A DNA stretch of 64,000 nucleotides, from assembly GCA_003599755.1 (NCBI GenBank), contig QZJO01000009.1, positions 22,140-86,139 of the forward strand, given 5' to 3'. This DNA comes from Candidatus Parcubacteria bacterium (GTDB lineage: Bacteria; Patescibacteriota; Minisyncoccia; Sungbacterales; SURF-37). The notes under the pieces were generated by a model. The model was given only the letters and a program-made list of their open reading frames with translations, was not told where the DNA came from and searched no databases. Position 1 is the stretch's first letter. Each line of letters begins with the position of its first letter. The position numbers were made by a program, and so were the translations under genes. Of this stretch, positions 31,056 to 49,803 are shown piece by piece.

Positions 31056-31066
31056 AGCTATGACGG

Positions 31067-31462: not shown

Positions 31463-31506
31463 AAAAACATGAGAAGCTGCGGGGCTGATTGAAAGCGAGG
31501 AAATGT

Positions 31507-32798: not shown

Positions 32799-32911
32799 AG
32801 CGGTTAATCACTTCGGTCTTGTCGTTTCAAATGGGAAAATTTTGTAATATCGCGCAATTTCTTTCTCCCGCGAAGGACTAAAGGACTTGCGGGCGAGGCT
32901 CTCTAGAAGTC

Positions 32912-33763
32912 CTATCTGGCAGCAATAGTGCGAGGCACATTTAAACCAGAACTGAAAAAGAGGATCTCTTTGCCCACTCGTGGTCCGCGCGCAGTATGCA
33001 AAAGATGGTGACGCTTTGATCTAAGACCGGCATAAATCTTTCGAATCTCGGCATGATCATCGTAGGAAACAATCCACCTCACCCCTTTGATGCTTCTTAC
33101 TACTTTACCGACGGCTACATGGTCATCCTTGTCGTAATGGTTCATGTATAAAGACTCGCCTTTTAGATAGTACGGAGGGTCAAGGTAGAATATTGTTTTT
33201 TTGTTCTCTAACCTCCTCGCAATTTTCCGAACTAAATCCATTGCGTCCATATGTTTGACATGGATTTTGCTTTTATGCTTGGCAATTTTCTTTATGCGCT
33301 TTATCAGCTCCTTTTTGTTGAAGCGACAATTCAGCTTGTACTCGCCCGTCTGATGAATATTCCCGATAGGGCCTCCGTTGAGAATCCCCGAGACATTTGT
33401 TCTATTCAGGAAGAAAGTAGCAAAGCCGAGCTTAAGCAAAGGTTCGTTCTCTTTATTTTGAAGAATCGCGCGCTGCCTCTTCCATGTTGTAATATTTACC
33501 CGTGTCGCGCGGATGAGTTTTATCAACTCTTCCGAGCGGTGAACTGCGGAGTACCAAAAAGCATAAATAGCCCTATCCTTATCGTTTATTGTTATCTCTG
33601 AAACGTACCCCTCAAACAAAAGGTGGAGAGCCACAGATGCACCTCCGGCATACGGCTCTACATAATGTCCGTTGATATCGTTGCGCTCACAGATTTTTGC
33701 AATAAACTTTGCGAGCTCATTTTTTCCTCCCGGATATCGAAGCGGTGAATAAAATTTTTTCAT
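32912..33763 (-). CDS. dam: DNA adenine methyltransferase (Dam/D12 class, N6-adenine)
   Basis: N-terminal LRYPGGK (motif I/FxGxG region) and DPPY catalytic motif. Confidence 0.85.
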   Translation of the reverse strand: MKKFYSPLRYPGGKNELAKFIAKICERNDINGHYVEPYAGGASVALHLLFEGYVSEITINDKDRAIYAFWYSAVHRSEELIKLIRATRVNITTWKRQRAILQNKENEPLLKLGFATFFLNRTNVSGILNGGPIGNIHQTGEYKLNCRFNKKELIKRIKKIAKHKSKIHVKHMDAMDLVRKIARRLENKKTIFYLDPPYYLKGESLYMNHYDKDDHVAVGKVVRSIKGVRWIVSYDDHAEIRKIYAGLRSKRHHLLHTARGPRVGKEILFFSSGLNVPRTIAAR

Positions 33764-35136: not shown

Positions 35137-35186
35137 GCTTCGTTCTAGATTTGCTATTCCGATTTTGAAAGGCTAGTACTAAAAGG

Positions 35187-38027: not shown

Positions 38028-38334
38028 ATATTTGCTGTATTAAATCAAGAGCTCCCGCAAACCAATATGCAGTTGCATGAATTTGGCGGTTTACTTAAAA
38101 ATCTTGGAATATTTAAACCAACGAGGACTACCGCAGCTTACGGTAGTCCTCGAAGCCTCAAAAATTATTTTTTTCTCGAGGGTTTTGTATCGCCGTGTCC
38201 CGGTTTCGGAACTCTCTCTACGACATGCGTGTCGGGATAGCGACGCGCTTTCTTCACGGTCGTAAATTCGCCGTTGCGAGCATCCCGGCCACGAAGAGTA
38301 GTTTTTGAGTCCTTACTCATTACGGTTATGGACG

Positions 38335-38607
38335 CTAGAACGTCCTGCCGCGAAGCCAGGTCAATCCCTCCTGGTCATCTATTCGTCCCCACCACTCTCT
38401 CGTCAAGCCAAAAACGATGAGTTCGTCATTGCGATCGAGATGAGGGGCGAGGCGATCATAGATCTGCTGTGCGCTCAGTGAGGTATCAACGAGCCATACG
38501 GACGTGGTGTGATGCCACCACGATCCAGAAAGGCTTCGAATCGCTTCGTGAAGAGAGCTGTAATCGCGTCCCGGTGAGTGAAGAGTATAGGAGATGATGT
38601 GAATCAC
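38335..38607 (-). CDS. Hypothetical 90-aa protein
   Basis: ORF only. A 51-aa basic ORF follows at 38166-38320. Confidence 0.35.
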   Translation of the reverse strand: MIHIISYTLHSPGRDYSSLHEAIRSLSGSWWHHTTSVWLVDTSLSAQQIYDRLAPHLDRNDELIVFGLTREWWGRIDDQEGLTWLRGRTF

Positions 38608-38830
38608 CTGTTCTCAGATACTGTTGATAGCTGGAAACTGCCGCTGATATGATGGATGCACAGTAAGCGCGCCAATCGACCGGGAGTCAAACTGAAGGCC
38701 ATCATACCATTTCGTTTGATTCCGCTTGGTTGCCTGCGGTACTCAGCTTCAGTGCCCACAAAAACCGCCGCATGGCGGTTTTTGTCGATTCTAAAGAAAT
38801 ATATTTATGCGTACGTCAGGGAGGGGCATA

Positions 38831-39211
38831 TTAATTTAAATCTTTCAGGGAAATACTTTTGACCACGCTACCGTGATAAACTTTTCTCCTGTAATACAAG
38901 GCTAATCCGAGGAATAGGACGGTCAGCGTCGTAAAAACGCAGGCGCTCCACCAAAGAGCGAGCGGCTGGGAGGGCTCAATGGCGTAAGCAGTCCAGAAAC
39001 CGACTGCAATAGGTGCAATAAGCGCTACGAGCCATTGGAACAACTCGTAATGTCTAAGTTCATTCGCTTGCACAAGTTCCATGCCGATTTCATCGGGGAA
39101 TCGGACGGTTACTCTTGTTTGCCGCCCTATATGGGGAGCTGATTTATTATCAGAAGATTCTTCTTTTATGCGCCCGTTCTTCATCTTCGATCGGGATAAT
39201 TTGGTAATCAT
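38831..39211 (-). CDS. Small membrane protein downstream of lexA, candidate SOS-induced toxin
   Basis: Basic N-terminus followed by two TM helices (FQWLVALIAPIAVGFW ... CVFTTLTVLFLGLALYY). It either overlaps the lexA 3' end by 62 nt or starts at ATG 39082. Confidence 0.4.
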   Translation of the reverse strand: MITKLSRSKMKNGRIKEESSDNKSAPHIGRQTRVTVRFPDEIGMELVQANELRHYELFQWLVALIAPIAVGFWTAYAIEPSQPLALWWSACVFTTLTVLFLGLALYYRRKVYHGSVVKSISLKDLN

Positions 39212-39839
39212 CCATCCGTTCGACCTGAATCACCTGAATAACCTTTCCGAATATTTGGAAGTCCCGCCGTAGAATTATGGCTTTATGCTCGGAGTCCGAG
39301 GTAACTGGGGTGAGTACGATGGCATTATTGCCGAATGCGATTTTCTTAATCACGGCATTGTCGTCGATAATGGCAACGACGATATCTCCGGTTTGAACAT
39401 TCTGCGTCATTTCGGTAAGAACGAAATCGCCGTCGTGGATTCCGGCATCTTCCATCGACGAACCGACCGCTCGGATAACATAAACATTTTCACGGCCGGA
39501 GATCAGGCTCGCGGCCACGGGGATATATTCGTCGAACTGCCGGTCGGCAATCACGCTCGGACTGCCACACCCTGCGGAGGCGAATACTGGCACCTGCAAG
39601 ATTTCCTCGCGAGCTGGATCATCTTCGACAATTTGTATACCGCGGCGGGAAAACCGACCTCGTCGAATTAGCCCTTTACTTTCGAGTGCTTTCAAGTACT
39701 GGGTCACTGACCGAATGCTTTTGGCGCCGACTGCCTTTCCGATTTCAGCCAAAGTAGGTGCTTCTCCCCTCTGGGCAAGACATGCCTTAATAAAATCGTA
39801 AACGCATCGCTGATTTGCCGTGAGCAGAGCCGGTTTCAT
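39150..39839 (-). CDS. lexA: LexA-family repressor (S24 peptidase) with an extended C-terminal tail
   Basis: wHTH N-terminus, an Ala-Gly cleavage-site region (ASAGCG), Ser (GSSM) and Lys (IKKI) catalytic dyad context, and a ~40-aa extra C-terminal extension. Confidence 0.8.
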   Translation of the reverse strand: MKPALLTANQRCVYDFIKACLAQRGEAPTLAEIGKAVGAKSIRSVTQYLKALESKGLIRRGRFSRRGIQIVEDDPAREEILQVPVFASAGCGSPSVIADRQFDEYIPVAASLISGRENVYVIRAVGSSMEDAGIHDGDFVLTEMTQNVQTGDIVVAIIDDNAVIKKIAFGNNAIVLTPVTSDSEHKAIILRRDFQIFGKVIQVIQVERMDDYQIIPIEDEERAHKRRIF

Positions 39840-39847
39840 CGGGAGTA

Positions 39848-39884
39848 ATTATAGCATCCACCTTTTCGCATTGCAAGATCCACC
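39848..39884 (-). promoter_or_regulatory. Predicted sigma70-type promoter of lexA
   Basis: On the lexA strand: -35 TTGCAA, 17-nt spacer, -10 TATAAT ending 9 nt before the ATG, so the transcript is probably leaderless. GGTGGAT direct repeats flank the -35 box. Confidence 0.45.
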
Positions 39885-39911
39885 ATATCCTACCCAGCCG
39901 CCCAAGGCTAC

Positions 39912-40361
39912 TTACCTCCTCCGCTCCTCCCACTCCGGCACGTCTTCGCCAACAATATAGAAAAAATGGAATGCGCCGGTGGGGCCGATCCAGCGAAAGG
40001 TTTTGACCAGGATCGCGCGGCGCTTGGCGTAGGGCAGCTTCCTGATGGAACGGATGAAAGCGGCAAAGGAGCCGTGCTCTTTTTGCAGGCCCTGGATGAT
40101 GCGCGCGTTTTCTATTGTGCCGCGGATCTTCGCGCCGTTCCTAATAATGCCCGGATCGGCGAGCAAGCGCAGAACGTCACGCGCGCCCATCTTCGCCACT
40201 TTCTGAACATTGAAATTATGGAATGCCTTTCGGAAATGCGGCCACTTGTTGCGCACGACTTCCCAGGAAAACCCCGCCTGGAATACGGATTGCGCCAGCG
40301 CTTCAAGATAGCCGTTGTCGTCCTTCGGGCGCTTGGGCGTGGGAATGTAGTAGTCGTACAT
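39912..40361 (-). CDS. tag: DNA-3-methyladenine glycosylase I
   Basis: Full-length similarity to Tag, including a conserved aromatic/Glu core (FHFFYIVGED...). Confidence 0.75.
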   Translation of the reverse strand: MYDYYIPTPKRPKDDNGYLEALAQSVFQAGFSWEVVRNKWPHFRKAFHNFNVQKVAKMGARDVLRLLADPGIIRNGAKIRGTIENARIIQGLQKEHGSFAAFIRSIRKLPYAKRRAILVKTFRWIGPTGAFHFFYIVGEDVPEWEERRR

Positions 40362-40404: not shown

Positions 40405-40426
40405 CCAAACCAAAACCGCCCGCAAG
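40405..40426. repeat. 22-nt exact repeat CCAAACCAAAACCGCCCGCAAG, copy 1
   Basis: An identical 22-mer is found at 41233-41254. Both lie upstream of minus-strand transcription units. Confidence 0.6.
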
Positions 40427-40693: not shown

Positions 40694-41047
40694 TCAGCGA
40701 AAGAGAACTGGTGCGTGATAGATCGCCCGAACCAACCAAACAAGAGCGACGAAAATACCGATGCCCGAGAACAACCTTCGGCTGGCGAGCGCGCGAGAGC
40801 GTCTTTCTTCGAACTCCGGATCACTGAAGATCTTGACCCTCGCACTGTCGGAGCCGTCCTGGTCGATCTCTTCCAGAGCCGCAAGTCTGGCGTCGAAGAA
40901 GGCGATCCAGTTATTAGCGCGGCCCGTCGCGCTCAGGATGAGCAGGTGCACAAATAGTCCGACCAGACTGATGACGAACTTCACCCACTCCGGTTGTCCT
41001 GTACCGAATACGATGGGCAATGCCACGGTGTTAAAGACCAGGAACAT
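40694..41047 (-). CDS. Hypothetical membrane protein (117 aa)
   Basis: Three hydrophobic helices. Located immediately upstream of the 45-aa gene, probably forming an operon with it. Confidence 0.5.
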   Translation of the reverse strand: MFLVFNTVALPIVFGTGQPEWVKFVISLVGLFVHLLILSATGRANNWIAFFDARLAALEEIDQDGSDSARVKIFSDPEFEERRSRALASRRLFSGIGIFVALVWLVRAIYHAPVLFR

Positions 41048-41232: not shown

Positions 41233-41254
41233 CCAAACCAAAACCGCCCGCAAG
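41233..41254. repeat. 22-nt exact repeat CCAAACCAAAACCGCCCGCAAG, copy 2
   Basis: Second copy, about 190 nt upstream of the operon at 40540-41047. Confidence 0.6.
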
Positions 41255-41570
41255 GGGTCGCCCCCTCACCTCCTCCGGTCCTCCCATTCAAATGAGCCGT
41301 GCTCCTTTGAAGCCTCGAAACTCCTCTGCCCCTGGCCGTGTCCTATCAAATAACACGCCGGATCACGAACGGTTCGGCTGATGGGGCGCCCAAGGCCCCC
41401 GACAATGTCCGCCAGGCGGACGCCAGCGGTCGCTGGTACCCTCAAGGGGTCAGGCGGCTTTTTTTATTGCGCGAGGCGGTTGCCATTTCTCCAAAATAGT
41501 GGTTTATTTTCCATAGTCCCGCTCTTCTCAGAACCGTGCGCGGCAGTCCCACCCCCACAAGGAGGAACGC

Positions 41571-42419
41571 GTGAACACGCTGCTCTTCGCCGACGCCCAG
41601 GTGTTTTCCGACCTCGCCCCGGAGCGCGACGACGCGCCGCTCCACTACGAGCAGGACCTCGCCTACGACACGGGCTTCTACCAGATCCGCAAGGCCATCG
41701 ACTGCGGCCTCTGGGGATCCGCGGAGCTGGACCTCAACCAGATGATCACCGCGGTGAACCAGCACGAGACTCCGGCCAGCCGCTTCGCGAAGCTCGAGTG
41801 GACCCCCGCGGTGCGCGGCGCCAAGACCGCCCTGCTCGCCGAGCGCGGCGTCCGGCCGATCCACATCGAGGAGTATGAGACGTGGTGCGCATGGCTCCCG
41901 CGCGCGAGCCGGTTCCCCGACGACGGGACGCGCGCGTGGACCTACCGCTTCGACTCCGTCCCCTTCTCGGTGCGCGAGGTGATCGCCGCGGCCATGCGGG
42001 CCGAGGCCTTCGAGTCGTTCGAGATCCGGTTCCCGGCCGAGCCCAAGGCGGTGGATCCGGTCCTGTTCGGGAAGATCGGACGCGTCGCCTACCTCATCGC
42101 GCGCTGGGGCGCGGAGCAGTTCCTCACGCTCGATCAGGTCCGGATGGGACTCGAAGCGCGGCAGCGGCATGACCGCCTGGACCAGTGGTGCAACCGCACC
42201 GTGAACAACGGGTCTGTCTTCCTCGGCGGCACCGTGGGCTCGGGCCTCGCGAGCGCGTTCATCAGCTTCGGTTTCCTCGGAGACCACCCGCTCCTGCTCC
42301 CCCTCGGCGTCCTCAGCGGCGTCGCCGCCGCGGCGGTCATGCTCAGCGTCGAGAAGCTCTTCTTCCGGAAGAAGATGGCAGCGATTCGCGCGGAATGCCC
42401 CTACGCGTTCGCGTCGTGA
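41571..42419 (+). CDS. Hypothetical protein with a C-terminal double TM anchor
   Basis: AAGGAGGAACGC-GTG start. 282 aa with a soluble N-domain and a C-terminal hydrophobic pair. The long antisense ORF 41442-42593 is judged spurious. Confidence 0.5.
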   Translation: MNTLLFADAQVFSDLAPERDDAPLHYEQDLAYDTGFYQIRKAIDCGLWGSAELDLNQMITAVNQHETPASRFAKLEWTPAVRGAKTALLAERGVRPIHIEEYETWCAWLPRASRFPDDGTRAWTYRFDSVPFSVREVIAAAMRAEAFESFEIRFPAEPKAVDPVLFGKIGRVAYLIARWGAEQFLTLDQVRMGLEARQRHDRLDQWCNRTVNNGSVFLGGTVGSGLASAFISFGFLGDHPLLLPLGVLSGVAAAAVMLSVEKLFFRKKMAAIRAECPYAFAS

Positions 42420-42446
42420 AGCAGTAAGCGGCAAACGCCGCACCCG

Positions 42447-42473
42447 CCGGCTCGGGAACGTTCCCGAGCCGGC
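42447..42473 (+). terminator. Perfect palindromic hairpin terminator
   Basis: GCCGGCTCGGGAACGTTCCCGAGCCGGC followed by GAAATATTTT. Confidence 0.55.
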
Positions 42474-42561
42474 GAAATATTTTAAATAAAGGCCTGGCTT
42501 TGCTTGAACGCCGAATCGCGCAATAATGCGCAAAGAACCAGCCCTTACCAAGGAGGCCGCT

Positions 42562-42972
42562 ATGGCGTGGCACCACGTGCGCACCGCGGGCATCGCGCTC
42601 CTCGCCGTGCTTCTCTGGACGCATGCCAGCTGCTACTTCGCAGAGTTCCTGCATCTCGGCGTCATGGCAACGCTCGTCCCGGCGCTGTGGATCTGCATCC
42701 TGATCGCGGATCATCTTTGCTTCTATCGGAAGATCGCTGCGTCGCCACTCTCGGCTGCCCACCAGGATACCTATATGCGCGCGCCGACCATCATGATCGG
42801 AGCCATGATCGCGACCCTGGGCCTGTATCGCGTCGGTCTTTTCACGTATGCGGATATGGCGCGCACCGTGATCGCGGGCACGATCGTCATCGCGGCCATA
42901 CGCATCGGGTTCATCATCCACATGCGACGCGCAAAGCGGGATGCGTCCGCCGCGCTGCGACGGGTACGCTAA
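42562..42972 (+). CDS. Hypothetical membrane protein (136 aa)
   Basis: AAGGAGG RBS. Four predicted TM helices. Confidence 0.5.
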   Translation: MAWHHVRTAGIALLAVLLWTHASCYFAEFLHLGVMATLVPALWICILIADHLCFYRKIAASPLSAAHQDTYMRAPTIMIGAMIATLGLYRVGLFTYADMARTVIAGTIVIAAIRIGFIIHMRRAKRDASAALRRVR

Positions 42973-43000
42973 CCGGAACATCCGGAACGGAGGGGAACCC

Positions 43001-43294
43001 ATGACCGAACAGGAGATCACGTTCTTCACGATCGGGCTTGTCGCGTTGGCCGGCGGACTCCTCATGACGCCGATCTTCATGGGCTTCGCGGTCGCTCGCC
43101 CGCTCCTGCTCGTCGCCGCGGGCTTCTGGGCCACCGTATTCGCGGTGTCCGCCGTGAGCGCCGCGATCCACTGGGACGGCCTGCAGCCCAAGGACATGCC
43201 CGGAATAATGGGAGGCCTCATTCCGTTTTCCGCCATATGCCTCGGCATCACCGGCTACAAGGCGTTTCGCGCGCGGAACAGAGAACTGGCGTAA
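43001..43294 (+). CDS. Hypothetical membrane protein (97 aa)
   Basis: GGAGGGGAA RBS. Three TM helices. Followed by a hairpin plus CTTCTTCTTTT tail. Confidence 0.5.
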   Translation: MTEQEITFFTIGLVALAGGLLMTPIFMGFAVARPLLLVAAGFWATVFAVSAVSAAIHWDGLQPKDMPGIMGGLIPFSAICLGITGYKAFRARNRELA

Positions 43295-43302
43295 ACCACA
43301 CA

Positions 43303-43354
43303 CTCGCGCAAGCCGCCCTGCGGCGGGAAGAATCCGCCACCGCAGTCGGCGGCT
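43303..43354 (+). terminator. Tandem hairpins plus GGCTTCTTCTTTT tail
   Basis: CCGCC-CTGC-GGCGG and CCGCCACCGCAGTCGGCGG followed by CTTCTTCTTTTG. This is the conserved terminator-tail type of this block. Confidence 0.5.
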
Positions 43355-43433
43355 TCTTCTTTTGACTCAAATAAAAACCGGCCCGCCGAGTGCGATACTT
43401 TGCACCCAACGGGCCGTAGCTATATATCTCCTT

Positions 43434-44024
43434 TCATCGGCTATGCCGGGTGTGGAAGAACCGTTTCGTTTCGACGATGATCTGACGGCCGAGATCGGTC
43501 ACGCCGGCGGCGTTCTCATCCAGGTTCAGCGACAGCGCGCCTCCCTTGCCGGAATCGCTTTGCACCATGCCTTGCCCCGTGAGGAATCCGAGCGTCTCGC
43601 GCAGCGCCGTGCGGTTGATGGAAGGGAGCTTCAGCTGGCCGAGCTTCCGCTCGACGTTCTGCAGCACCGAGTCCTCTTTCAAGGCATGTCCGCCGGCGAA
43701 GATTCGCCGACTCCCCGGCCTGGCAAAGCCGTAGACCAGCACGAGCTGCACATGGATGTGCGGCACGGGCAAGGACGCGTCGAGCCGCAGCGCGCGGTGC
43801 GGCTCGAGCCGCTGAAACTGCTTCATCGCGGCCGCAGTCCGACGCGCTTCCTTCTTTTGCTGCCGCGCCACCCAGCGCAGGGTCTGGCGCTCGGCCTCGG
43901 CCAGTTCCGCCCGGAGCCGGTCGGAGTTCTCGAGGCCCACGCGGCGGACGATCTGCGCGAACCAGCCCATCTGGATCGAAGGATACAGCTCTCGCAGCTG
44001 CCGAAACTCGCGTTCGATGTCCAC
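43434..44024 (-). CDS. Hypothetical protein (196 aa)
   Basis: AAGGAG lies 7 nt upstream of GTG 44024. The protein is more protein-like than the antisense plus-strand ORF 43362-44087. Confidence 0.4.
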   Translation of the reverse strand: MDIEREFRQLRELYPSIQMGWFAQIVRRVGLENSDRLRAELAEAERQTLRWVARQQKKEARRTAAAMKQFQRLEPHRALRLDASLPVPHIHVQLVLVYGFARPGSRRIFAGGHALKEDSVLQNVERKLGQLKLPSINRTALRETLGFLTGQGMVQSDSGKGGALSLNLDENAAGVTDLGRQIIVETKRFFHTRHSR

Positions 44025-44108
44025 CGATGGTCTCCTTGTCGGGGTTTCGAAGATCTGAATCGCGCGGTAATTAGTATACTAAAATAGTTGATTTGTCAAT
44101 CTATGCCG

Positions 44109-44139
44109 TTGATAGCTGCTCTAGAAAATGCTTAGCTGA
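44109..44139 (+). promoter_or_regulatory. Conserved promoter module P1 (TTGATA-N17-TGCTTAGCTGA)
   Basis: -35-like hexamer, 17-nt spacer and an extended -10-like TGCTTAGCT. Near-identical modules occur at 45802, 46304 and 48521. Confidence 0.5.
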
Positions 44140-44222
44140 GCACAGTTCCCCGCTCCTTTCCATTCCTCCTTCCCAGCCGGAAGTGCTGCCCGAACAACAC
44201 TTCCGCACTGGGAGGGAAACCT

Positions 44223-44681
44223 ATGCAAGAGGATCGATCGCTGCAACGAATCTCGCGCCGCGAAGCCCTAAAGTCAGCGCTGATCCAGCCAGGTATCGCG
44301 GCATTCGGCCTGGGCGTCGTCGCCGCCGTAATGGTTCTACTCGTGACCTCGCAGCCACTGGTGGCGAAGGTGCCGACGAGCTTCCTCGGCTATCCAGTGA
44401 CTATGCAGGACCTCGGTCGACTATGCGCCGTCGCGTTCTTCGTCCTGTCGCCACTGATGTTCATTCCATTCAGCTATCGCGACCTTCGGAAGAACTTCGT
44501 CCGGTGTCTGGAATGCGGCAAGCAACGATCACTTCATGCGATCGAACATCTCCGCGCCATGCGTCGGTGCGGGACCTGCCACCACGAGCTCCCGCCCCAG
44601 CTTCGATCGCAACCGCGAACCGGAGAAAAGCTATCGACCAACCAACTCATACTTCGGTACTTGCGAGCGCTCAATCGCTAG
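44223..44681 (+). CDS. Membrane protein with a C-terminal zinc-ribbon
   Basis: GGGAGGGAAAC RBS. Two TM helices, then CLECGK...CGTCHH (a CxxC-N17-CxxC motif). Confidence 0.55.
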   Translation: MQEDRSLQRISRREALKSALIQPGIAAFGLGVVAAVMVLLVTSQPLVAKVPTSFLGYPVTMQDLGRLCAVAFFVLSPLMFIPFSYRDLRKNFVRCLECGKQRSLHAIEHLRAMRRCGTCHHELPPQLRSQPRTGEKLSTNQLILRYLRALNR

Positions 44682-44701
44682 AACCTCGATAAGGAGGGGT
44701 C

Positions 44702-45070
44702 ATGGAAAAACTGATCGCCGCGATCTGGGGATTCACCCCTGACTGGTGGAGCTACGGCGACCCCACGGTGCGTACCATGGTGCTCGGCGTCGTGACGCTC
44801 ACGATCCTGATGGCCAGTGCCATGATCGGCATGGCCGTACTCGGACTCATCGCATATCTCCGGCGGCAACCGACCAGCTCTCGCCTAGTGAGACTCGAAC
44901 TCGCAATCTCTCTCGGGATGGTCGCGGGAGCCGCCATCATCCAGGTGCTTCCGCTTCATCTCGGTCCGCGCCTAGCCCTCACCATCGCGCTTCTCGCGCT
45001 CTGCCTCACCGCCACTGCGATCTATATTGCGGATGGGACCTCCAAGAGGAGGATATCCCATGAGCGCTGA
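44702..45070 (+). CDS. Hypothetical membrane protein (122 aa)
   Basis: AAGGAGGGG RBS. Four TM helices. Confidence 0.5.
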   Translation: MEKLIAAIWGFTPDWWSYGDPTVRTMVLGVVTLTILMASAMIGMAVLGLIAYLRRQPTSSRLVRLELAISLGMVAGAAIIQVLPLHLGPRLALTIALLALCLTATAIYIADGTSKRRISHER

Positions 45071-45227
45071 GACGCGCGAAGTCCTCTGCCTGATCTTCAT
45101 CCCGACTGCCAGCTTCGCGGCACTCTGGCTCGGGGTCGGCGCGCTCCTGTGGTTCAAGCCACACCTCTGGGACATCGCCGGCGATGCGGCAAAGTCCCCG
45201 CCGCTCGTCGAAGAGGAGATGCAATGA
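45060..45227 (+). CDS. Small membrane protein (55 aa)
   Basis: GAGGAGGA RBS. The start overlaps the upstream stop by 11 nt. One TM helix. Confidence 0.4.
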   Translation: MSAETREVLCLIFIPTASFAALWLGVGALLWFKPHLWDIAGDAAKSPPLVEEEMQ

Positions 45228-45739
45228 TGACCGACAAGCTCGTCGCGCTTCAGTTCAAAGATGAGCAGGGATTCGCGCGCGGCCTTGAAGCACTCGAAGC
45301 GCGAAGCGAGATTCCGTACTCGCTTCCCGGCAATCGAAACATCGCGCTGCCGACATCGGCACTGGGCTGGTTCGTGGCCGAGCTCCGACGTCTTTCCGTC
45401 AAATTCGAGGAGATTCCGGTGGTCGATGCCAGCGATCTTCCCGAAGGCAAGGCCGACCGGATCCGTCGGTCGGCGCGCGCATCCTCACCGCGCATGTTGA
45501 TTCGGGTTCGGAACGCAGAACGCCTGGCGCAGTTACTCCAGCTTCTCATTCGAACGGACTGTCCGTTCGTCTATCTCGGATCGGAGGAAGGCATCGTCGT
45601 CCGCTACGAGGACTGGACGCGATTCGTGCCCGATCAGTCCATGTTCGAGGGTTTCGAACATCGGGCCGTGTCCCAGATAACCCTCGACCTGCTCGCGATT
45701 CGAGGTAAGCCGCACCTCGCCGAGTTCCTCGGCATGTAA
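45224..45739 (+). CDS. Hypothetical soluble protein (171 aa), last gene of a translationally coupled 4-gene operon
   Basis: GAGGAG RBS, with ATGA start/stop overlap to the upstream gene. No recognisable domain. Confidence 0.5.
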   Translation: MMTDKLVALQFKDEQGFARGLEALEARSEIPYSLPGNRNIALPTSALGWFVAELRRLSVKFEEIPVVDASDLPEGKADRIRRSARASSPRMLIRVRNAERLAQLLQLLIRTDCPFVYLGSEEGIVVRYEDWTRFVPDQSMFEGFEHRAVSQITLDLLAIRGKPHLAEFLGM

Positions 45740-45760
45740 TCGCCCACCGCCCGCACGGAA

Positions 45761-45795
45761 GCCCGCCGTGCATCGCGGCGGGCTTCTTCTTTTTC
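45761..45795 (+). terminator. Hairpin plus GGCTTCTTCTTTTT terminator
   Basis: GCCCGCCG-TGCATCG-CGGCGGGC followed by TTCTTCTTTTTC. Confidence 0.55.
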
Positions 45796-45801
45796 GCCTT
45801 C

Positions 45802-45831
45802 TTGACGTCCCTGGCCGGCATGCTTAGCTGG
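45802..45831 (+). promoter_or_regulatory. Conserved promoter module P2 (TTGACG-N16-TGCTTAGCTG)
   Basis: Same architecture as P1, P3 and P4. It is followed by ~430 nt with no convincing ORF, then a conserved terminator. Confidence 0.5.
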
Positions 45832-46267
45832 AGTCAGCGATTCCCCTTAAACAAAATCGTGCGTCAGCGACAATCCGTGGGACGGGTCGTGCCTGGAAGT
45901 ACACGCGTAACGACACAGCGCTATACTGCGCTGGGACCCGAGTAATCACTCGGCGAACACCCACCGCCGTGACGGGGCTCATCCTGGGAATCGCCCCAGA
46001 CGCAACGCAGCATGTAAATCGCGGCAGGCATGTGACGGTAGAGAGGGTGACCTATCGCCGTACTCGGAGAATCCTCACGGAGGCACGGGCTGATGCTCGT
46101 CGCTGCTGACGCACGAGGTCAATTGCGAGCTAACCGGCTCGCATCGCTGTGGCGCAGGCGTCGGAAATTACGCTGGCCTGATAGTATAGTGAGGGGCTCA
46201 TCCACCCTCTCCCTTCCTGGTCAGGTCCGCGGACTTGCCGCCGGCGCTTGCGCCACACTCGATCACC

Positions 46268-46296
46268 GCCACCTAGCAGAGGTGGCGGCTTCTTTT
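46268..46296 (+). terminator. Hairpin plus GGCTTCTTTTG terminator
   Basis: GCCACCT-AGCAG-AGGTGGC followed by GGCTTCTTTTG. Confidence 0.5.
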
Positions 46297-46303
46297 GCTC
46301 TTC

Positions 46304-46333
46304 TTGACGTTCCTGGCCAATGTGCTTAGCTGA
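46304..46333 (+). promoter_or_regulatory. Conserved promoter module P3 (TTGACG-N16-TGCTTAGCTGA)
   Basis: Identical core to P2. Lies upstream of gtrA. Confidence 0.5.
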
Positions 46334-46403
46334 GCGCAGTTCTCCTTCCTCCCAGCCGAAAACGCCTCTCGCTCCGAGAGACCTTTCCGCCCTGGGAGGA
46401 AAA

Positions 46404-46802
46404 ATGCTCAGCCCTTCACAACTCTCTCAGATGCTTCGGTTTTCGACAGCCGGAGCCGCGACCGTTTCTCTGTACTACCTCCTGCTGGCTTTCCTGACGG
46501 AGGTGCTAGGGTTCTGGTACCTCACCTCATCCATCGCGGCGTTCCTGATTGGCTACGCAACGAACTTCACGCTCCAGAAACTCTGGACGTTCAAGGAACG
46601 CAGCACGCACGCGCTATCTCGCCAAGTCACTCTTCATCTCGCTCTTCAGTTCGGGAACCTCGTGCTCAACACGACCCTTCTGTATCTCCTCGTGGAATAC
46701 GGACAACTCTGGTACATCACCGCACAGCTCATCCTGACCGTTGCGCTATCCATCGAGAGCTACTTCGTTTCGCGATGGATCTTCGCTTCCGTTAGCCGGT
46801 GA
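46404..46802 (+). CDS. GtrA-family membrane protein (polysaccharide/lipid-linked sugar translocation component)
   Basis: 132 aa with four TM helices and the GtrA-like pattern F..VG......Y.....L......Y..A...A......NF.L.K.WTF. Confidence 0.65.
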   Translation: MLSPSQLSQMLRFSTAGAATVSLYYLLLAFLTEVLGFWYLTSSIAAFLIGYATNFTLQKLWTFKERSTHALSRQVTLHLALQFGNLVLNTTLLYLLVEYGQLWYITAQLILTVALSIESYFVSRWIFASVSR

Positions 46803-46850
46803 CCCTGTTCGTGTCGTCCCAAAACAACGCTTCCGCACTGGGAGGGAAAC

Positions 46851-47363
46851 ATGACGTATGATCCGTCGCTGCAGCCCATATCCCCCGATACAATGGCGAA
46901 CCTCAAGATGGTCAAGGGCGCCGTTCTCGACCTGGGGCGTATCCATCTTGTCGAGCTCACTCGCGTGGTCGAGAGTAAAGAGATAGTTACCGACTACAAA
47001 ACGAAAAACCGAGTCCTTGGAACGATTCGAGAATCGGTCGAGCAGATCGATGCAATGCTTGCCGCCATCGTCCGAGAGCTCGAAGCTGCGGGCAAACTCG
47101 CTGGAGCTGTCCGGCAAACGCTGGGAGTAATCGACGGGGTGCATGCGGTCTTCTTCGAAAGGGAAGGGCGCGTCACGCACATCTGGACGGTTCTCTCCGC
47201 CGATGATCGAAGTGTCGAGGAGGCGGTCTACGCAGGCGAGAGAAAGATTATCGACAAGCTCGGTAGCACGCCTCTCGACTTCCACCTCGTCGTCCGCGAC
47301 GGCCGGCCGCTCGACGAGCGCTTCCCCCGCGCAACGTGTCTCTATAAGCGAACACTCAGGTAA
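46851..47363 (+). CDS. Hypothetical protein (170 aa)
   Basis: GGGAGGGAAAC RBS. Its 5'UTR and first residues (M..DPSLQPIS) are duplicated from the gene at 44223. Confidence 0.45.
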   Translation: MTYDPSLQPISPDTMANLKMVKGAVLDLGRIHLVELTRVVESKEIVTDYKTKNRVLGTIRESVEQIDAMLAAIVRELEAAGKLAGAVRQTLGVIDGVHAVFFEREGRVTHIWTVLSADDRSVEEAVYAGERKIIDKLGSTPLDFHLVVRDGRPLDERFPRATCLYKRTLR

Positions 47364-47429
47364 CCGGTCATCGCTAGAGAAGAGTTCCCTAACTATACAG
47401 AGGGTGCTTCTCACCCTGAGGAGGAAGAT

Positions 47430-47837
47430 ATGACCATGGTTCAGCCCGTCCTGCAAGACGATCCGTTCGCAGCGCCTGCCTGGAACGCGAGCGGCGCAAT
47501 CCTCGCACTCGAGAAGTTGCGCAGCGGCGAGCAGTTGGACAACAACGACCGTCGAGCGATCACGAAGACCGAGGAGTTCCTCCGCTCGCTGCAATGGGGA
47601 GATGCTCAAGAAGACGACCTTTCAGACGAAGCCCGGCGCAACCAGGAGTTCTTGCTGAGAGCGAACCGCTTCCGACCTACACTGGATATCGTCAATCTCC
47701 ACCTTCAATTCGAGGCGCTGATCAGCCAGCTCGAGGCGTCCGCAGGTCTGAACGAGGAAGTTCTCGGCTTCGTCCCGCAGATGCAGGACACGCTTCTCGA
47801 CGTTCTCCATGTGCTCAACATCTGCCGGCAGCGCTGA
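47430..47837 (+). CDS. Hypothetical protein (135 aa)
   Basis: GAGGAGGAAGAT RBS. Acidic, predicted helical. Confidence 0.45.
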   Translation: MTMVQPVLQDDPFAAPAWNASGAILALEKLRSGEQLDNNDRRAITKTEEFLRSLQWGDAQEDDLSDEARRNQEFLLRANRFRPTLDIVNLHLQFEALISQLEASAGLNEEVLGFVPQMQDTLLDVLHVLNICRQR

Positions 47838-47933
47838 AAAACCGAACGCCGTCGCCCGCGACGAGAAAGAAGCTCGTCACCCCGGGTGGCGGCTTCTTCT
47901 TTTTCGACGACGATCATAACGACTAGAAAAGAT

Positions 47934-48206
47934 TCAACCGACGACCGAAGTAGATACACCAGCCGAGGCCAGCGAAAAATAGAGTGCGTCGGCCACAGGG
48001 ATCACGCCGATCCGTCCAAGCATTATATTGCGCTCGTGATAAATCCACCAGCCGTCTGCTACTGCAACCTGCCCCCACACGCCCCACCACATCACCGCGA
48101 GAACCGCAAAGCCCAACAGCATGAAACGCTCAAAGGGCCGGACGCCTGATCGCCACCACATCAACAGCCCGATCAGTAGAAGGATGCCGTACGCGGCCAG
48201 ATTCAT
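47934..48206 (-). CDS. Lycopene-cyclase-domain (CrtYd-like) small membrane protein
   Basis: 90 aa with 3 TM helices. ATGA overlap with the upstream partner. Carries a degenerate IPVAD.LYF motif. Confidence 0.45.
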   Translation of the reverse strand: MNLAAYGILLLIGLLMWWRSGVRPFERFMLLGFAVLAVMWWGVWGQVAVADGWWIYHERNIMLGRIGVIPVADALYFSLASAGVSTSVVG

Positions 48207-48469
48207 AACGTATTGCGCTTAGCCCAGATCAGGATCGCGGCGACATTGTAGAAGGCAAGGACGAACAACAGCATCTCTTCGATCGGAACCCCGGCGACTG
48301 TCGCGATAATCCGGTTGTTGGGGAAATTGCCGAGATAGCGAATCCAAAACGCATCGAAGATTGACCAGTAGAGAATAGTAACCGCGAGCACAGCCGCGCC
48401 CCGCCAAGTTAGGAGACGACGGCCGACCCGGAAATCGCCCGCCGCATCAAAGGCGATACTGATCGGCAA
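48203..48469 (-). CDS. Lycopene-cyclase-domain (CrtYc-like) small membrane protein
   Basis: 88 aa with 3 TM helices. GVPIEEMLLFVL matches the PxEE(x)LFF motif of the heterodimeric lycopene cyclase domain. Confidence 0.55.
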   Translation of the reverse strand: MPISIAFDAAGDFRVGRRLLTWRGAAVLAVTILYWSIFDAFWIRYLGNFPNNRIIATVAGVPIEEMLLFVLAFYNVAAILIWAKRNTL

Positions 48470-48520
48470 TACAAAGCTGAAGCGGTCAACGCGCTGACCT
48501 ACCGTTCACACTGGTCGCCC

Positions 48521-48550
48521 TTGACCTCCCCCGCCAGCGTGCTTAGCTGA
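48521..48550 (+). promoter_or_regulatory. Conserved promoter module P4 (TTGACC-N16-TGCTTAGCTGA)
   Basis: Same architecture as P1-P3. Upstream of the Ham1 gene. Confidence 0.5.
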
Positions 48551-48601
48551 TTTCAGATTCCTCCCCCAGGCGCTTCACTGCTTCAGCCCTTAAGGAGCAC
48601 C

Positions 48602-49204
48602 ATGATGAAAATCACAGTAGGTTCGACCAATCCCGCGAAGATCGCCCAGATACGGGACGCCTTGGCGCCGGCAGGAATCGATGTCCGGGGCATAACAGAC
48701 AAACGACTCCTTCCAGAAGTAATCGAAGACCAGCGAAGCGTGCAAGAAAACGCGAGAAAGAAAGCTCTTGCTTACGCCAAGGCGCTCGGAGAATTGGTGC
48801 TCTCAGTGGACAATGCACTATTTCTCGACGGTCTGCCTCCCGAGCAACAGCCGGGCATGTACGTGCGACGCATCGGCGGCCGAGAAGCCGCGACTGATAC
48901 CGATCTTCTTCGTCATGGCTCGGAGCTCGTGCAATCTCTCGGCGGTCGGACTACCGGCTACTGGGAATATGGGATCTGCGTCGCCAGCCCGGAGGGCAAG
49001 ACGTGGGAAACCACTATTCGAACTCCGCGAGTGTTCACGAGCGAGGCAAGTTCCGCGATCGTGCCCGGCTATCCGCTCGAGTCGATCCAAATCGATCCGG
49101 AAACTGGAAAGTACATCGCGGAGATGACCGCAGCGGAACAAGCTGCGTTCTGGCAGAGAACGCTCGGCGAGCCCCTCCGGAAGTTTTTCGAAGGCATCAG
49201 ATGA
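48602..49204 (+). CDS. Non-canonical purine NTP pyrophosphatase (Ham1/RdgB/ITPase family)
   Basis: VGSTNPAKIAQI N-terminal motif and overall Ham1-fold pattern. AAGGAG RBS. Confidence 0.75.
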   Translation: MMKITVGSTNPAKIAQIRDALAPAGIDVRGITDKRLLPEVIEDQRSVQENARKKALAYAKALGELVLSVDNALFLDGLPPEQQPGMYVRRIGGREAATDTDLLRHGSELVQSLGGRTTGYWEYGICVASPEGKTWETTIRTPRVFTSEASSAIVPGYPLESIQIDPETGKYIAEMTAAEQAAFWQRTLGEPLRKFFEGIR

Positions 49205-49245
49205 AGCGACCCGCAGGCGCGCCAAACACGCCCATCGTTCGCACG

Positions 49246-49285
49246 GAAGCCCGCCGTCGCGTCAACGGTGGGCTTCTTCTTTTCG
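49246..49285 (+). terminator. Hairpin plus GGGCTTCTTCTTTTC terminator
   Basis: GCCCGCCGT-CGCGTCA-ACGGTGGGC followed by TTCTTCTTTTC. Confidence 0.5.
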
Positions 49286-49299
49286 CTCAATCACTGATG

Positions 49300-49316
49300 T
49301 GCGCAGGGCAGGATTC
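49300..49316 (-). repeat. 17-nt direct repeat of the tRNA-Tyr 3' end (att-core-like scar)
   Basis: TGCGCAGGGCAGGATTC is identical to 49506-49522, which is the discriminator plus acceptor 3' strand plus T-arm 3' half of tRNA-Tyr. Confidence 0.6.
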
Positions 49317-49505
49317 CGGCGTTACGCGCCTAGAACCGTCGCGGCACGCGCACTCTGTGCGCTAACACCGCCTTTGAAACCTTGCGGTTTCAATACTTCC
49401 GCCATGGGGAAACTTCCGTTTCCCCCACCCCCCTTCCCGAGGTTCGAATCTTGCCCGTTCATCAAAGTAGACAGAACCCGCGAGGGGTCCAGTATACTTC
49501 GTTAA

Positions 49506-49588
49506 TGCGCAGGGCAGGATTCGAACCTGCGTAGCCGTAAGGCGCCAGATTTACAGTCTGGTGTAATTGACCGCTCTACCACCTGCGC
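49506..49588 (-). tRNA. tRNA-Tyr (anticodon GUA), class II with long variable arm
   Basis: The reverse complement folds as acceptor GCGCAGG/CCTGCGC, anticodon stem-loop CCAGA-CTGTAAA-TCTGG, a 14-nt variable arm, and T arm GCAGG-TTCGAAT-CCTGC. Confidence 0.85.
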
Positions 49589-49741
49589 AAATTACTTCGT
49601 AATTTCGGCATGCTGCCGAGTCAATTACACCATGCCTTCGGCATATGTAATTGTTCCCAGGCATCCTACTGCGTCTGCCCTGTGCTGTAGCTTCGAGCGT
49701 ACTCGTAATGCCCGTTCAAAGCAAAGCCCTTTGCTTTGAAC

Positions 49742-49760
49742 CCGCTCTACCACCTGCGCG
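49742..49760 (-). repeat. Duplicated 5' fragment (19 nt) of tRNA-Tyr
   Basis: CCGCTCTACCACCTGCGC[G] repeats the acceptor 5' strand and D-arm start of tRNA-Tyr. It lies about 150 nt upstream of the intact gene. Confidence 0.6.
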
Positions 49761-49803
49761 AATAACTCCGTAATTACCGTACCTGATTTTCCCGCGCTTT
49801 CGA

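What the first reader, a model, noticed from the sequence alone, without database searches (positions are those of the whole stretch)
41400..49300. 8-kb block of short operons built from a repeated terminator-promoter module and duplicated 5' leaders
Four plus-strand transcription units start with almost identical promoters (TTGAC[G/C]-N16/17-TGCTTAGCTGA) at 44109, 45802, 46304 and 48521. Most units end with a hairpin followed by the unusual tail GGCTTCTTCTTTT, at 43303, 45761, 46268, 47855 and 49246.

Two genes (44223 and 46851) also share a 30-nt leader (CTTCCGCACTGGGAGGGAAAC) and the first few codons (M..D.SLQ.IS).

Most encoded products are small membrane or unknown proteins. This architecture is not a known island type. 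It may be a recombination-prone family of surface or envelope gene cassettes, or a regulon for a dedicated sigma or anti-sigma system.
Basis: seen in the sequence. Interest (0 to 1): 0.75.

Follow-up and report, generated by a model that had tools for sequence, protein, structure and literature searches.

The report
Private promoter-terminator cassettes plus unannotated structured RNA
In a variable, strain-specific stretch of a Parcubacteria genome, several short orphan-gene units and one roughly 460-base non-coding RNA all use the same home-made promoter, terminator and ribosome-binding leader, a way of expressing genes that differs from the rest of the genome; it is known from this one genome only.

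Summary
TGCTTAGCTGA (at most 1 mismatch) occurs four times in 64 kb, all on the plus strand between 44.1 and 48.6 kb. GGCTTCTTCTTTT closes five intrinsic terminators between 43.3 and 49.3 kb. A 28-nt leader occurs three times.

New findings:
1. The unit between promoter 45802 and terminator 46266 has no gene. It is a ~460-nt, strongly and strand-specifically structured RNA (z = -5.6, against -1.9 for the antisense strand). It has no Rfam match and is unannotated.
2. The 5' UTRs of units 44109 and 46304 are homologous hairpins that bury the Shine-Dalgarno sequence.
3. All 11 plus-strand genes carry strong Shine-Dalgarno sites, while 16 core or neighbouring genes carry none. Three of those 16 look leaderless.
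4. The block lies inside ~26 kb of accessory DNA between tRNA-Tyr and mraZ that is absent from the closest retrievable relative.

The encoded proteins are unrelated to each other, so this is not a cassette family. No sigma or anti-sigma gene was detected among the ORFs scanned, and no integrase or integron attC core site was found in the regions checked. The promoter looks like a variant of the host's TGn-extended -10 type.

Best reading: insulated, co-regulated, moron-like units built by local duplication of a terminator-promoter module. No homologous DNA was found anywhere, so the RNA's status rests on this one sequence.

The parts
41571..43294 (+). Unit 1: three genes (282 aa with a C-terminal TM segment; 136 aa and 97 aa membrane proteins). 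It has an ordinary promoter (TTGCCA-N17-TTTATT) and no TGCTTAGCTGA motif. GC3 is 0.80-0.94.
   Evidence: the 282-aa protein has about 100 distant homologues of unknown function
43303..43363 (+). Terminator t1 (compound hairpin followed by GGCTTCTTCTTTT)
43434..44024 (-). 196-aa gene (C4552_02335) conserved in other genomes. The model shows a helical N-terminal part and a winged-helix-like C-terminal part. It has its own promoter (TTGACA-N15-TATACT) and terminator (43416-43379).
   Evidence: homologues at 54-73% identity; different neighbourhoods in relatives, next to mraZ in L024; AF2 pLDDT 79 with only weak winged-helix matches
44109..44139 (+). Promoter P2: TTGATA-N14-TGCTTAGCTGA
44145..44222 (+). 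5' UTR of unit 2. Hairpin in which UCCUUCCCAG pairs with the Shine-Dalgarno region CUGGGAGGGA.
   Evidence: z = -3.4; no Rfam family
44223..45739 (+). Unit 2 genes: 152 aa (2 TM, weak Zn-ribbon match), 122 aa (3 TM), 55 aa (1 TM, not annotated by NCBI) and 170 aa (soluble orphan, C4552_02350)
45757..45793 (+). Terminator t2. It is 85% identical over 59 nt to t5.
45802..45831 (+). Promoter P3: TTGACG-N13-TGCTTAGCTGG. It drives the non-coding unit.
45836..46296 (+). Candidate ~460-nt structured non-coding RNA. Domain 1 is 45857-46116, closed by a 12-bp helix. A hairpin lies at 46125-46142. Domain 2 is 46143-46263 with a 17-bp helix. Its own terminator t3 is at 46266-46296.
   Evidence: no ORF and no codon periodicity; z = -6.1 / -5.6 on the plus strand, -1.9 on the reverse complement, controls +1.5 to -2.7; helix probabilities mostly 0.85-1.0 for the long helices; no Rfam hit; apparently unannotated, inferred from the numbering of the NCBI locus tags looked up
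46304..46333 (+). Promoter P4: TTGACG-N13-TGCTTAGCTGA. With the t3 tail it forms a direct repeat of the t2-tail/P3 module, 502 bp apart.
   Evidence: (D1)
46338..46403 (+). 5' UTR of unit 4. Homologous hairpin in which UUCCUCCCAG pairs with the Shine-Dalgarno region CUGGGAGGAA.
   Evidence: z = -3.8; alignment
46404..47837 (+). Unit 4 genes: GtrA-like membrane protein (132 aa), a 170-aa orphan and a 135-aa orphan. An internal copy of the leader lies at 46823-46850.
47855..47903 (+). Terminator t4, next to the convergent terminator of the minus-strand genes
47934..48469 (-). Two small lycopene-cyclase-domain membrane proteins. They have no Shine-Dalgarno site, which is the host-type pattern.
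48521..48550 (+). Promoter P5: TTGACC-N13-TGCTTAGCTGA
48602..49204 (+). Unit 5: Ham1/RdgB-like NTP pyrophosphatase (200 aa)
49245..49283 (+). Terminator t5

Best explanation
The stretch 43.3-49.3 kb is a string of small, insulated transcription units resembling prophage 'morons'. It sits in a strain-specific accessory region of a Candidatus Parcubacteria genome.

Each unit starts at a sigma-70-type promoter. This has a good -35 (TTGAC) and an invariant 11-mer, TGCTTAGCTGA, which I read as a TGn-extended -10 variant plus a discriminator or operator. A conserved initial transcribed sequence follows. Each unit ends at a strong intrinsic terminator from one sequence family.

The modules were spread by local duplication or recombination of a ~95-nt terminator-promoter piece. 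The 502-bp RNA cassette is bounded by direct repeats of that piece.

Because the promoter core is identical in all four units, they are most likely switched together by one factor acting at -10/+1 (inferred).

Translation of the first genes of units 2 and 4 is additionally gated by a 5' UTR hairpin that pairs an anti-Shine-Dalgarno stretch with the ribosome-binding site. That the hairpin forms is predicted; what opens it is unknown.

One unit makes a ~460-nt highly structured RNA instead of a protein. It is co-expressed with the orphan membrane and soluble proteins. Its function is unknown.

All plus-strand genes of the block depend on strong Shine-Dalgarno sites, in a lineage whose core genes mostly lack them. 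This marks the block as a separate expression system.
For: Motif and terminator statistics and positions.

Duplicated modules.
- t2 and t5 are 85% identical over 59 nt.
- t2-tail/P3 and t3-tail/P4 are 83% identical over 46 nt and lie 502 bp apart.
- The leader copies are 96% and 71% identical.

Leader hairpins: both fold with the Shine-Dalgarno site inside a 10-bp helix. Comparing the two by eye, pair 2 changes from C-G to U-A (compensatory) and pair 4 from U.G to C-G, while the inner hairpins differ in sequence.

RNA unit.

Shine-Dalgarno contrast:
- The 11 plus-strand block genes and the 196-aa gene have a predicted binding energy to the anti-Shine-Dalgarno sequence (dG) of -7.4 to -11.9 kcal/mol.
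- The 16 core or other genes have dG of -5.3 or weaker.
- Only 11 of 51 called genes in relatives reach -7.

Host promoters carry a TGn-extended -10 placed 6-8 nt before the ATG (rpsB, lexA, the fructose-bisphosphate aldolase (FBA) gene).

Accessory status:
- Relative L004 has tRNA-Tyr, about 1 kb, then mraZ. The window has 25.8 kb between them.
- The one orphan searched (the 170-aa protein at 45227-45739) has only a self-hit among 5.8 billion proteins.
- The six block proteins found by the exact look-up, five of unknown function plus Ham1, sit in 90%-identity clusters that occur only on this contig.
- None of the three block motifs occurs in the relatives' loci.
Against: - No transcript data exist. 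Promoters, start sites and terminators are all predictions.
- The -10 part does not meet a canonical TATAAT test (one search found 0 sigma-70 matches), so the 11-mer could be something other than a -10 element.
- Only 64 kb of a contig of at least 264 kb could be inspected, so the motif may be commoner elsewhere in the genome.
- No homologue of the RNA, the leaders or the modules was found, so there is no covariation support beyond two leader copies.
- No candidate regulator was identified. The neighbouring 196-aa winged-helix-like protein also occurs in relatives that lack the block.
- Base composition of units 2-5 is host-like, so recent foreign origin is not shown.
Confidence: 0.55

Rival explanations
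1. The motif is simply this organism's ordinary sigma-A promoter, and the hairpins are ordinary terminators. Their similarity reflects only recent tandem duplication of intergenic DNA, with no shared regulation.
For: The -35 is canonical. TGC-TTAGCT resembles the host's TGC-TATGCT (rpsB) and TGC-TATAAT (lexA). Flanking similarity between P3 and P4 (80% over 40 nt) shows duplication.
Against: P2 shares no upstream sequence with the other promoters, yet it keeps the 11-mer and the next 12 nt. This argues for selection on the motif. The motif is absent from every other promoter region inspected in the 64 kb.
Confidence: 0.2
2. The units form a regulon of a dedicated alternative sigma factor (with an anti-sigma factor), encoded elsewhere in the genome.
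For: An invariant non-TATAAT -10-like element is restricted to a few units.
Against: No sigma or anti-sigma domain was found in the block, the 26-kb insert or the other large ORFs of the window that were scanned. The -35 is the housekeeping TTGAC, and a TG sits at the extended -10 position. The spacing does not fit sigma-54 (my own inspection).
Confidence: 0.1
3. The block is the decayed remnant of an integrated mobile element or prophage at tRNA-Tyr. The uniform promoters and terminators are the element's own expression signals.
For: It is adjacent to tRNA-Tyr/tRNA-Thr with tRNA fragments nearby. It is absent in relatives, and another relative carries a resolvase and a DUF2283 gene at the same spot. 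Its genes use Shine-Dalgarno sites, unlike host genes. The flanking region carries restriction-modification, PD-Lambda-5-like, toxin-antitoxin and Fic genes.
Against: There is no integrase, no PHROG hit and no phage or plasmid DNA match. The 17-nt tRNA-Tyr repeat belongs to a conserved 170-nt element that is also present in a relative lacking the block. GC3 is host-like. A gene with homologues in other genomes (196 aa) sits in the middle.
Confidence: 0.15
4. The 'RNA unit' is not an RNA gene. It is either a decayed protein-coding cassette, or a long attenuator-type leader of the GtrA operon in which t3 acts as a conditional terminator.
For: It uses the same promoter and terminator modules as the protein-coding units. 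It lies directly upstream of the GtrA operon on the same strand.
Against: The fold energy is an outlier and strand-specific, and codon periodicity is entirely lost. A complete second promoter (P4) follows t3, and there is no known riboswitch match.
Confidence: 0.15
5. The block is an integron-like array, with the inter-cassette hairpins acting as attC recombination sites.
For: It is a series of short units, mostly of unknown function, on one strand and separated by imperfect hairpins.
Against: No GTTRRRY site occurs at any junction, and RYYYAAC occurs only three times near t1 and t4, never paired across a hairpin. No IntI-like integrase was found. The hairpins are followed by T-tracts and each unit has its own promoter.
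Confidence: 0.02

Closest known systems
Prophage 'morons' (autonomous promoter-gene-terminator units inserted between resident genes; concept recalled from the lambdoid-phage literature, not checked in a paper here)
   Same: Short accessory units, each with its own promoter upstream and a factor-independent terminator downstream. The products are mostly of unknown or membrane-associated function.
   Different: There is no prophage context. The promoters and terminators all belong to one sequence family. One unit encodes an RNA. The units sit next to a tRNA in a CPR (Candidate Phyla Radiation) chromosome.
Intergenic repeat families that carry regulatory signals (Neisseria Correia elements, REP/BIME, ERIC, BOX/RUP; from my own knowledge)
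   Same: Repeated 40-100-nt intergenic modules with hairpins that can terminate or start transcription.
   Different: Here the copies are confined to 6 kb of the 64 kb seen, with no terminal inverted repeats or target duplications. The module is terminator plus promoter in a fixed orientation.
Shine-Dalgarno-sequestering 5' UTRs (RNA thermometers such as ROSE/fourU; translational riboswitch expression platforms)
   Same: An anti-Shine-Dalgarno stretch pairs with the ribosome-binding site in a stable hairpin.
   Different: There is no ROSE, fourU or riboswitch match. The helix is long and GC-rich (-34 to -38 kcal/mol), so simple thermal melting is unlikely. The trigger is unknown.
Large structured bacterial non-coding RNAs (OLE, GOLLD, HEARO, ROOL, raiA)
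   Same: Several hundred nucleotides, multi-domain, strongly structured and independently transcribed.
   Different: No Rfam family matches even at E <= 10. No homologues are known, so conservation and covariation are untested.
tRNA-linked genomic or defence islands
   Same: Accessory DNA next to tRNA-Tyr that is absent from a relative. It contains restriction-modification, PD-Lambda-5-like, toxin-antitoxin and Fic genes.
   Different: No integrase and no flanking direct repeats were found. The block itself has host-like composition.

Membership tests
Intrinsic (factor-independent) terminators | GC-rich hairpin followed directly by a T-rich tract | tested here: met
   The scan finds t2, t3, t4 and t5. 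t1 is a compound hairpin with the same tail. The tails are C-interrupted (TTCTTCTTTT).
Sigma-70 (housekeeping) promoters | -35 hexamer close to TTGACA | tested here: met
   TTGACG, TTGACG, TTGACC and TTGATA
Sigma-70 (housekeeping) promoters | -10 hexamer close to TATAAT, with A at position 2 and T at position 6, at 16-18 nt spacing | tested here: not met
   The scan gives 0 hits in 40-52.5 kb. The best reading is TG-C-TTAGCT (extended -10, 16-nt spacer), which lacks A at position 2.
Sigma-54 promoters | GG and GC elements separated as in TGGCAC-N5-TTGC | tested here: not met
   By inspection, the TGGCC...TGC/AGC spacing is 8 or 13 instead of 11. P5 lacks TGG altogether.
Integron cassette array | attC sites with RYYYAAC...GTTRRRY core sites | tested here: not met
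   No GTTRRRY lies within any of the five junctions.
Integron cassette array | An adjacent IntI tyrosine recombinase | tested here: not met
   No recombinase domain was found in the ORFs scanned between 23.6 and 49.5 kb.
tRNA-integrated genomic island | Adjacent to a tRNA gene and absent from relatives | tested here: met
   tRNA-Tyr is at 49505-49589. Relative L004 has about 1 kb between tRNA-Tyr and mraZ, against 25.8 kb here.
tRNA-integrated genomic island | Integrase gene and flanking direct repeats derived from the tRNA 3' end | tested here: not met
   There is no integrase. The only tRNA-Tyr 3' repeat (49300-49316) lies 206 bp from the tRNA, inside a conserved element, and there is no distal copy.
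Prophage or phage-derived region | Phage hallmark proteins, or similarity to phage genomes | tested here: not met
   No PHROG hit for 10 block proteins. No phage, plasmid or IMG/VR match for the queries tried: the RNA unit with promoter P3 (45795-46300) against phages and plasmids, and four short patterns (three from the block, one from the tRNA-Tyr-linked element) against IMG/VR.
Any Rfam 15 RNA family (for 45836-46296 and the leaders) | Covariance-model score at or above the gathering threshold | tested here: not met
   Searches give only chance-level hits (terminator look-alikes and miRNA hairpins).
Structured non-coding RNA gene (generic) | Non-coding, with its own promoter and terminator, and a fold more stable than shuffles in a strand-specific way | tested here: met
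Structured non-coding RNA gene (generic) | Covariation-supported conserved structure in homologues | not testable with these tools
   No homologue was found. The source genome and its close relatives are absent from the searchable DNA collections.

The most novel reading that the evidence does not exclude
The transcript 45836-46296 would be the first member of a new class of large structured non-coding RNA in Parcubacteria. It would be expressed from a private promoter, leader and terminator system. That system lets a set of orphan, Shine-Dalgarno-dependent genes be switched on together in a host that otherwise translates mostly Shine-Dalgarno-less or leaderless mRNAs. In other words, it would be a self-contained accessory expression module rather than a collection of random insertions.
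Probability: 0.25. Interest if true: 0.7.

Novelty: new variant of a known kind. Interest (0 to 1): 0.5.

Why it matters
CPR (Candidate Phyla Radiation) bacteria are uncultured for the most part, and almost nothing is known about how they regulate genes.

This locus offers three concrete handles:
- a sharply defined promoter/operator motif;
- a repeated Shine-Dalgarno-masking leader;
- an unannotated ~460-nt structured RNA.

All three sit in one small region that can be synthesised and tested in a heterologous host or followed in metatranscriptomes.

The locus also shows that accessory genes in such a genome can carry a different translation-initiation pattern (strong Shine-Dalgarno sites) from the core genes. 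That is useful for gene calling and for recognising acquired DNA when base composition gives no signal.

If the RNA proves to be conserved, it would add a new large RNA class.

Tried and rejected
1. Genome-wide motif census. The source contig (263,839 bp, C4552 locus tags) is in neither DNA collection, and the look-up of encoding contigs could not return it.

2. Homologues of the RNA, leader and promoter. blastn and nhmmer against all fetched relatives' loci, phage and plasmid collections and four IMG/VR pattern scans found nothing related.

3. The RNA as an antisense regulator of the block's ribosome-binding sites. RNAduplex energies against block start regions were no better than against control genes, so this was rejected.

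4. Paralogy among the block proteins. There is none.

5. Function of the orphan proteins. Pfam, PHROGs, NCBIfam and PADLOC gave nothing for the orphans tested, and PDB sequence searches of three of them (170 aa at 45227, 170 aa at 46851, 135 aa) gave nothing. A single-sequence AlphaFold model of the 170-aa protein (46851) had pLDDT 57, so it was not used for fold search.

6. The 196-aa neighbour as the block's regulator. It is winged-helix-like (weak matches), but it occurs in relatives without the block. It is therefore not block-specific.

7. LexA-box and sigma-54 readings of the motif. Both were rejected on spacing, by inspection.

8. Literature searches on CPR promoters and Shine-Dalgarno use found nothing specific.

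Full report
**Source**

The window comes from a 263,839-bp contig of a Candidatus Parcubacteria MAG with locus tags C4552_xxxxx. The 170-aa protein at 45227-45739 is RJQ36712.1. The closest ribosomal protein S2 sequences in 5.8 billion proteins are only 65-71% identical. No close relatives are therefore available.

**Check of the observation**

- TGCTTAGCTGA with at most 1 mismatch occurs four times in 64 kb, at 44129, 45821, 46323 and 48540. All four are on the plus strand, and 0 of 100 shuffles reached four hits. Relaxing to 2 mismatches adds nothing above chance.
- GGCTTCTTCTTTT is exact at 43351, 45781, 47891 and 49271, with a variant at 46284.
- Each tail follows a GC-rich hairpin that a terminator scan recognises. 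The 'unusual tail' begins inside the stem (GAAGCC...GGCTTC).
- The repeat finder and BLAST show whole modules duplicated:
  - t2 (45741-45797) and t5 (49229-49286) are 85% identical over 59 nt;
  - t1 and t4 are 83% identical over 29 nt;
  - the t2-tail plus P3 (45786-45830) and the t3-tail plus P4 (46289-46332) are 83% identical and 502 bp apart.
- The leader 44193-44220 recurs at 46823-46850 (96%) and, diverged, at 46377-46404 (71%).
- Conservation continues past the 11-mer (TGCTTAGCTGAGCNCAGTTC).
- Minor corrections: the -35 to 11-mer gap is 13-14 nt; the -35 at 44109 is TTGATA; unit 1 (41571-43294) has a different, ordinary promoter.

**Anatomy of the block**

| Unit | Promoter | Product | Terminator |
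|---|---|---|---|
| 2 | P2, 44109 | four genes: 152, 122, 55 and 170 aa | t2 |
| 3 | P3, 45802 | no gene | t3 |
| 4 | P4, 46304 | GtrA-like, 170 aa, 135 aa | t4 |
| 5 | P5, 48521 | Ham1-like NTP pyrophosphatase | t5 |

- Between t4 and P5 lie two minus-strand lycopene-cyclase-domain genes.
- Between t1 and P2 lies a minus-strand 196-aa gene.
- Pfam recognises GtrA, Ham1 and one lycopene-cyclase-domain protein; the second lycopene-cyclase-domain gene has only a weak, sub-threshold NCBIfam match, and the 152-aa protein a weak Zn-ribbon match. NCBIfam confirms Ham1, and PHROGs and PADLOC recognise none of the block proteins submitted.
- All-against-all BLASTP finds no paralogy. What is repeated is regulatory DNA (plus about 33 nt of one coding start), not genes.

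**The non-coding unit**

- The stretch 45836-46296 has stop codons in all six frames.
- It shows no codon-position GC periodicity: 0.59/0.64/0.61, a range of 0.05. The other genes of the block have a range of 0.25-0.47, and Ham1 has 0.15.
- It appears to be unannotated at NCBI: the locus tags looked up step by five, leaving only 02355, presumably GtrA, between 02350 and 02360.
- It folds far better than shuffles, with z = -6.1 including the terminator.
- Without the terminator z is -5.6. The reverse complement gives -1.9, and 16 control windows of the same length give +1.5 to -2.7.
- The predicted structure is well defined:
  - a 260-nt multibranch domain closed by the 12-bp helix UCGUGCGUCAGC/GCUGACGCACGA;
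  - a small hairpin;
  - a 120-nt domain with a 17-bp helix;
  - then the terminator.
- No Rfam 15 family matches, even at E <= 10.
- I therefore read unit 3 as an RNA gene. This rests on one sequence.

**The leaders**

- The 5' UTRs of units 2 and 4 are homologous over their whole length.
- Both fold into a hairpin whose outer 10-bp helix pairs an anti-Shine-Dalgarno stretch with the ribosome-binding site: UCCUUCCCAG/CUGGGAGGGA and UUCCUCCCAG/CUGGGAGGAA.
- The two differ by one compensatory change (C-G to U-A) and one G.U-to-G-C change. The inner hairpins differ in sequence (z = -3.4 and -3.8).
- The internal copy before gene 46851 lacks the partner arm and does not fold.
- No riboswitch or thermometer family matches.

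**A distinct expression pattern**

- All 11 plus-strand genes of 41.5-49.2 kb, and the 196-aa gene, have strong Shine-Dalgarno sites. Their predicted binding energy (dG) to ACCUCCUUU is -7.4 to -11.9 kcal/mol.
- The 16 core or neighbouring genes have none (dG of -5.3 or weaker, mean -1.9).
- rpsB, lexA and the fructose-bisphosphate aldolase (FBA) gene have a TGn-extended -10 only 6-8 nt before the start codon. This suggests leaderless mRNAs.
- In relatives' loci, only 11 of 51 called genes reach -7.
- The block's 11-mer resembles the host's extended -10 (TGC-TTAGCT against TGC-TATGCT at rpsB). I therefore favour recognition by the primary sigma factor, with an added regulator, over a dedicated sigma factor.
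- No sigma or anti-sigma domain was found among the window ORFs scanned.

**Genomic context**

- Relatives keep the order rpsB-tsf-hypothetical gene-tRNA-Thr-tRNA-Tyr.
- In L004, tRNA-Tyr is followed after about 1 kb by mraZ-rsmH-PBP-murE-tRNA-Glu. In the window, mraZ lies at 23652-23227. So 25.8 kb are extra.
- The extra DNA holds:
  - two guanylate-kinase-like genes, a GNAT and a Fic/Doc gene;
  - a DUF4258/DUF2283 pair;
  - a Dam methylase next to a PD-Lambda-5_A-like protein;
  - an MmeI-type restriction-modification enzyme;
  - LexA and a 3-methyladenine glycosylase;
  - then the block.
- Part of the extra DNA (27-40 kb) has low GC.
- Another relative carries a resolvase and a DUF2283 gene at the same tRNAs. 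The site is therefore a hotspot.
- The 196-aa gene has homologues at 54-73% identity. These sit next to mraZ (L024) or next to purC/DUF5674 (L022, L023), and none has the block's motifs nearby.
- Units 2-5 have host-like GC3 (0.63-0.82, against 0.67-0.78 in core genes). Unit 1 and the 196-aa gene are higher, at 0.80-0.94.
- No integrase, phage protein or integron attC core site is present.

**Interpretation**

- The best-supported reading is a set of insulated, moron-like units assembled by duplication of a terminator-promoter module.
- They are co-regulated through an identical -10/+1 region.
- Two of them carry an additional translational gate.
- One encodes a large structured RNA.
- Shown: the repeats, their statistics, the absence of coding signal, the fold-energy outlier, the Shine-Dalgarno contrast, and the accessory location.
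- Inferred: that the motifs act as promoters and terminators, co-regulation, the gating, and any function of the RNA.
The idea of a private regulatory system is.

**Limits**

- Both large DNA scans returned only chance hits.
- The source genome beyond the window could not be read.
- Genome-wide motif frequency and RNA conservation therefore remain open.

Noticed in passing
window 49297-49465 (minus strand); L004 12278-12455: A conserved ~170-nt element lies just downstream of tRNA-Tyr. It is 88% identical over 93 nt between genomes whose proteins are about 65% identical. It has two GNRA-capped hairpins and no Rfam hit. In both genomes its 3' end is an exact 17-nt copy of the 3' end of that genome's own tRNA-Tyr, although the two tRNAs differ. 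Its 5' part pairs with that copy (GGGCAAGAUUC/GGAAUCCUGCCC against GGGUGAGAGUC/GACUCUCACCC). It is a candidate tRNA-linked structured RNA, not an att scar of the block.
   Followed up: partly
window 49742-49775 vs 49571-49604 (minus-strand genes): A 34-nt repeat (91% identity) comprises the first 18-19 nt of tRNA-Tyr plus its upstream 15 nt. The second copy lies between tRNA-Thr and tRNA-Tyr and is followed by a perfect hairpin (GTTCAAAGCAAAGGGCTTTGCTTTGAAC). Together with the 3' fragment at 49300-49316, the intact tRNA-Tyr is therefore bracketed by copies of its own two ends.
   Followed up: no
L004 about 11880-12090: In the relative, the tRNA-Thr(UGU) found by ARAGORN appears to be nested inside the anticodon loop of a second, split tRNA-Thr(UGU)-like gene. 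The 5' half (GCCGGTATAGCTCAGTGGTTAGAGCACCTGTTTTG) is upstream. The 3' half (TAAACAGGGTTGTCGGGGGTTCGATTCCCTCTACCGGCT) is downstream. This was seen by eye.
   Followed up: no
window 27000-40000: A low-GC block (0.43-0.52, against about 0.60) carries defence and addiction genes: Fic/Doc (27529-27912), DUF1905, a DUF4258+DUF2283 pair (30318-30885), a Dam methylase (32912-33763) next to a PD-Lambda-5_A-like protein (33760-35136), and an MmeI-type enzyme (35187-38027). LexA follows at 39150-39839.
   Followed up: partly
window core genes, e.g. 51862 (rpsB), 39839 (lexA), 57764 (fructose-bisphosphate aldolase, FBA): Core genes lack Shine-Dalgarno sites, and several have a TGn-TATAAT-like box 6-8 nt before the start codon. 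This suggests widespread leaderless mRNAs in this Parcubacteria lineage. Relatives show the same low Shine-Dalgarno use.
   Followed up: partly
window 40405-40426 and 41233-41254: An exact 22-nt direct repeat (CCAAACCAAAACCGCCCGCAAG-like) flanks the 8xMP-like membrane protein gene at 40694-41047.
   Followed up: no
window 23783-23819; L004 13118-13153; L024 1730-1762: A ~35-nt element just upstream of mraZ is conserved at about 91% across genomes. It is probably the mraZ promoter or a MraZ-binding region.
   Followed up: no
window 42445-42474: A perfect 30-nt palindrome (CGCCGGCTCGGGAACGTTCCCGAGCCGGCG) follows the 282-aa gene. It acts as a terminator-like hairpin inside unit 1.
   Followed up: no
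window 24402-25795 (minus strand): Two adjacent guanylate-kinase-like P-loop genes have strong Shine-Dalgarno sites, next to a GNAT acetyltransferase that also has one. They lie at the mraZ-proximal end of the accessory region.
   Followed up: no
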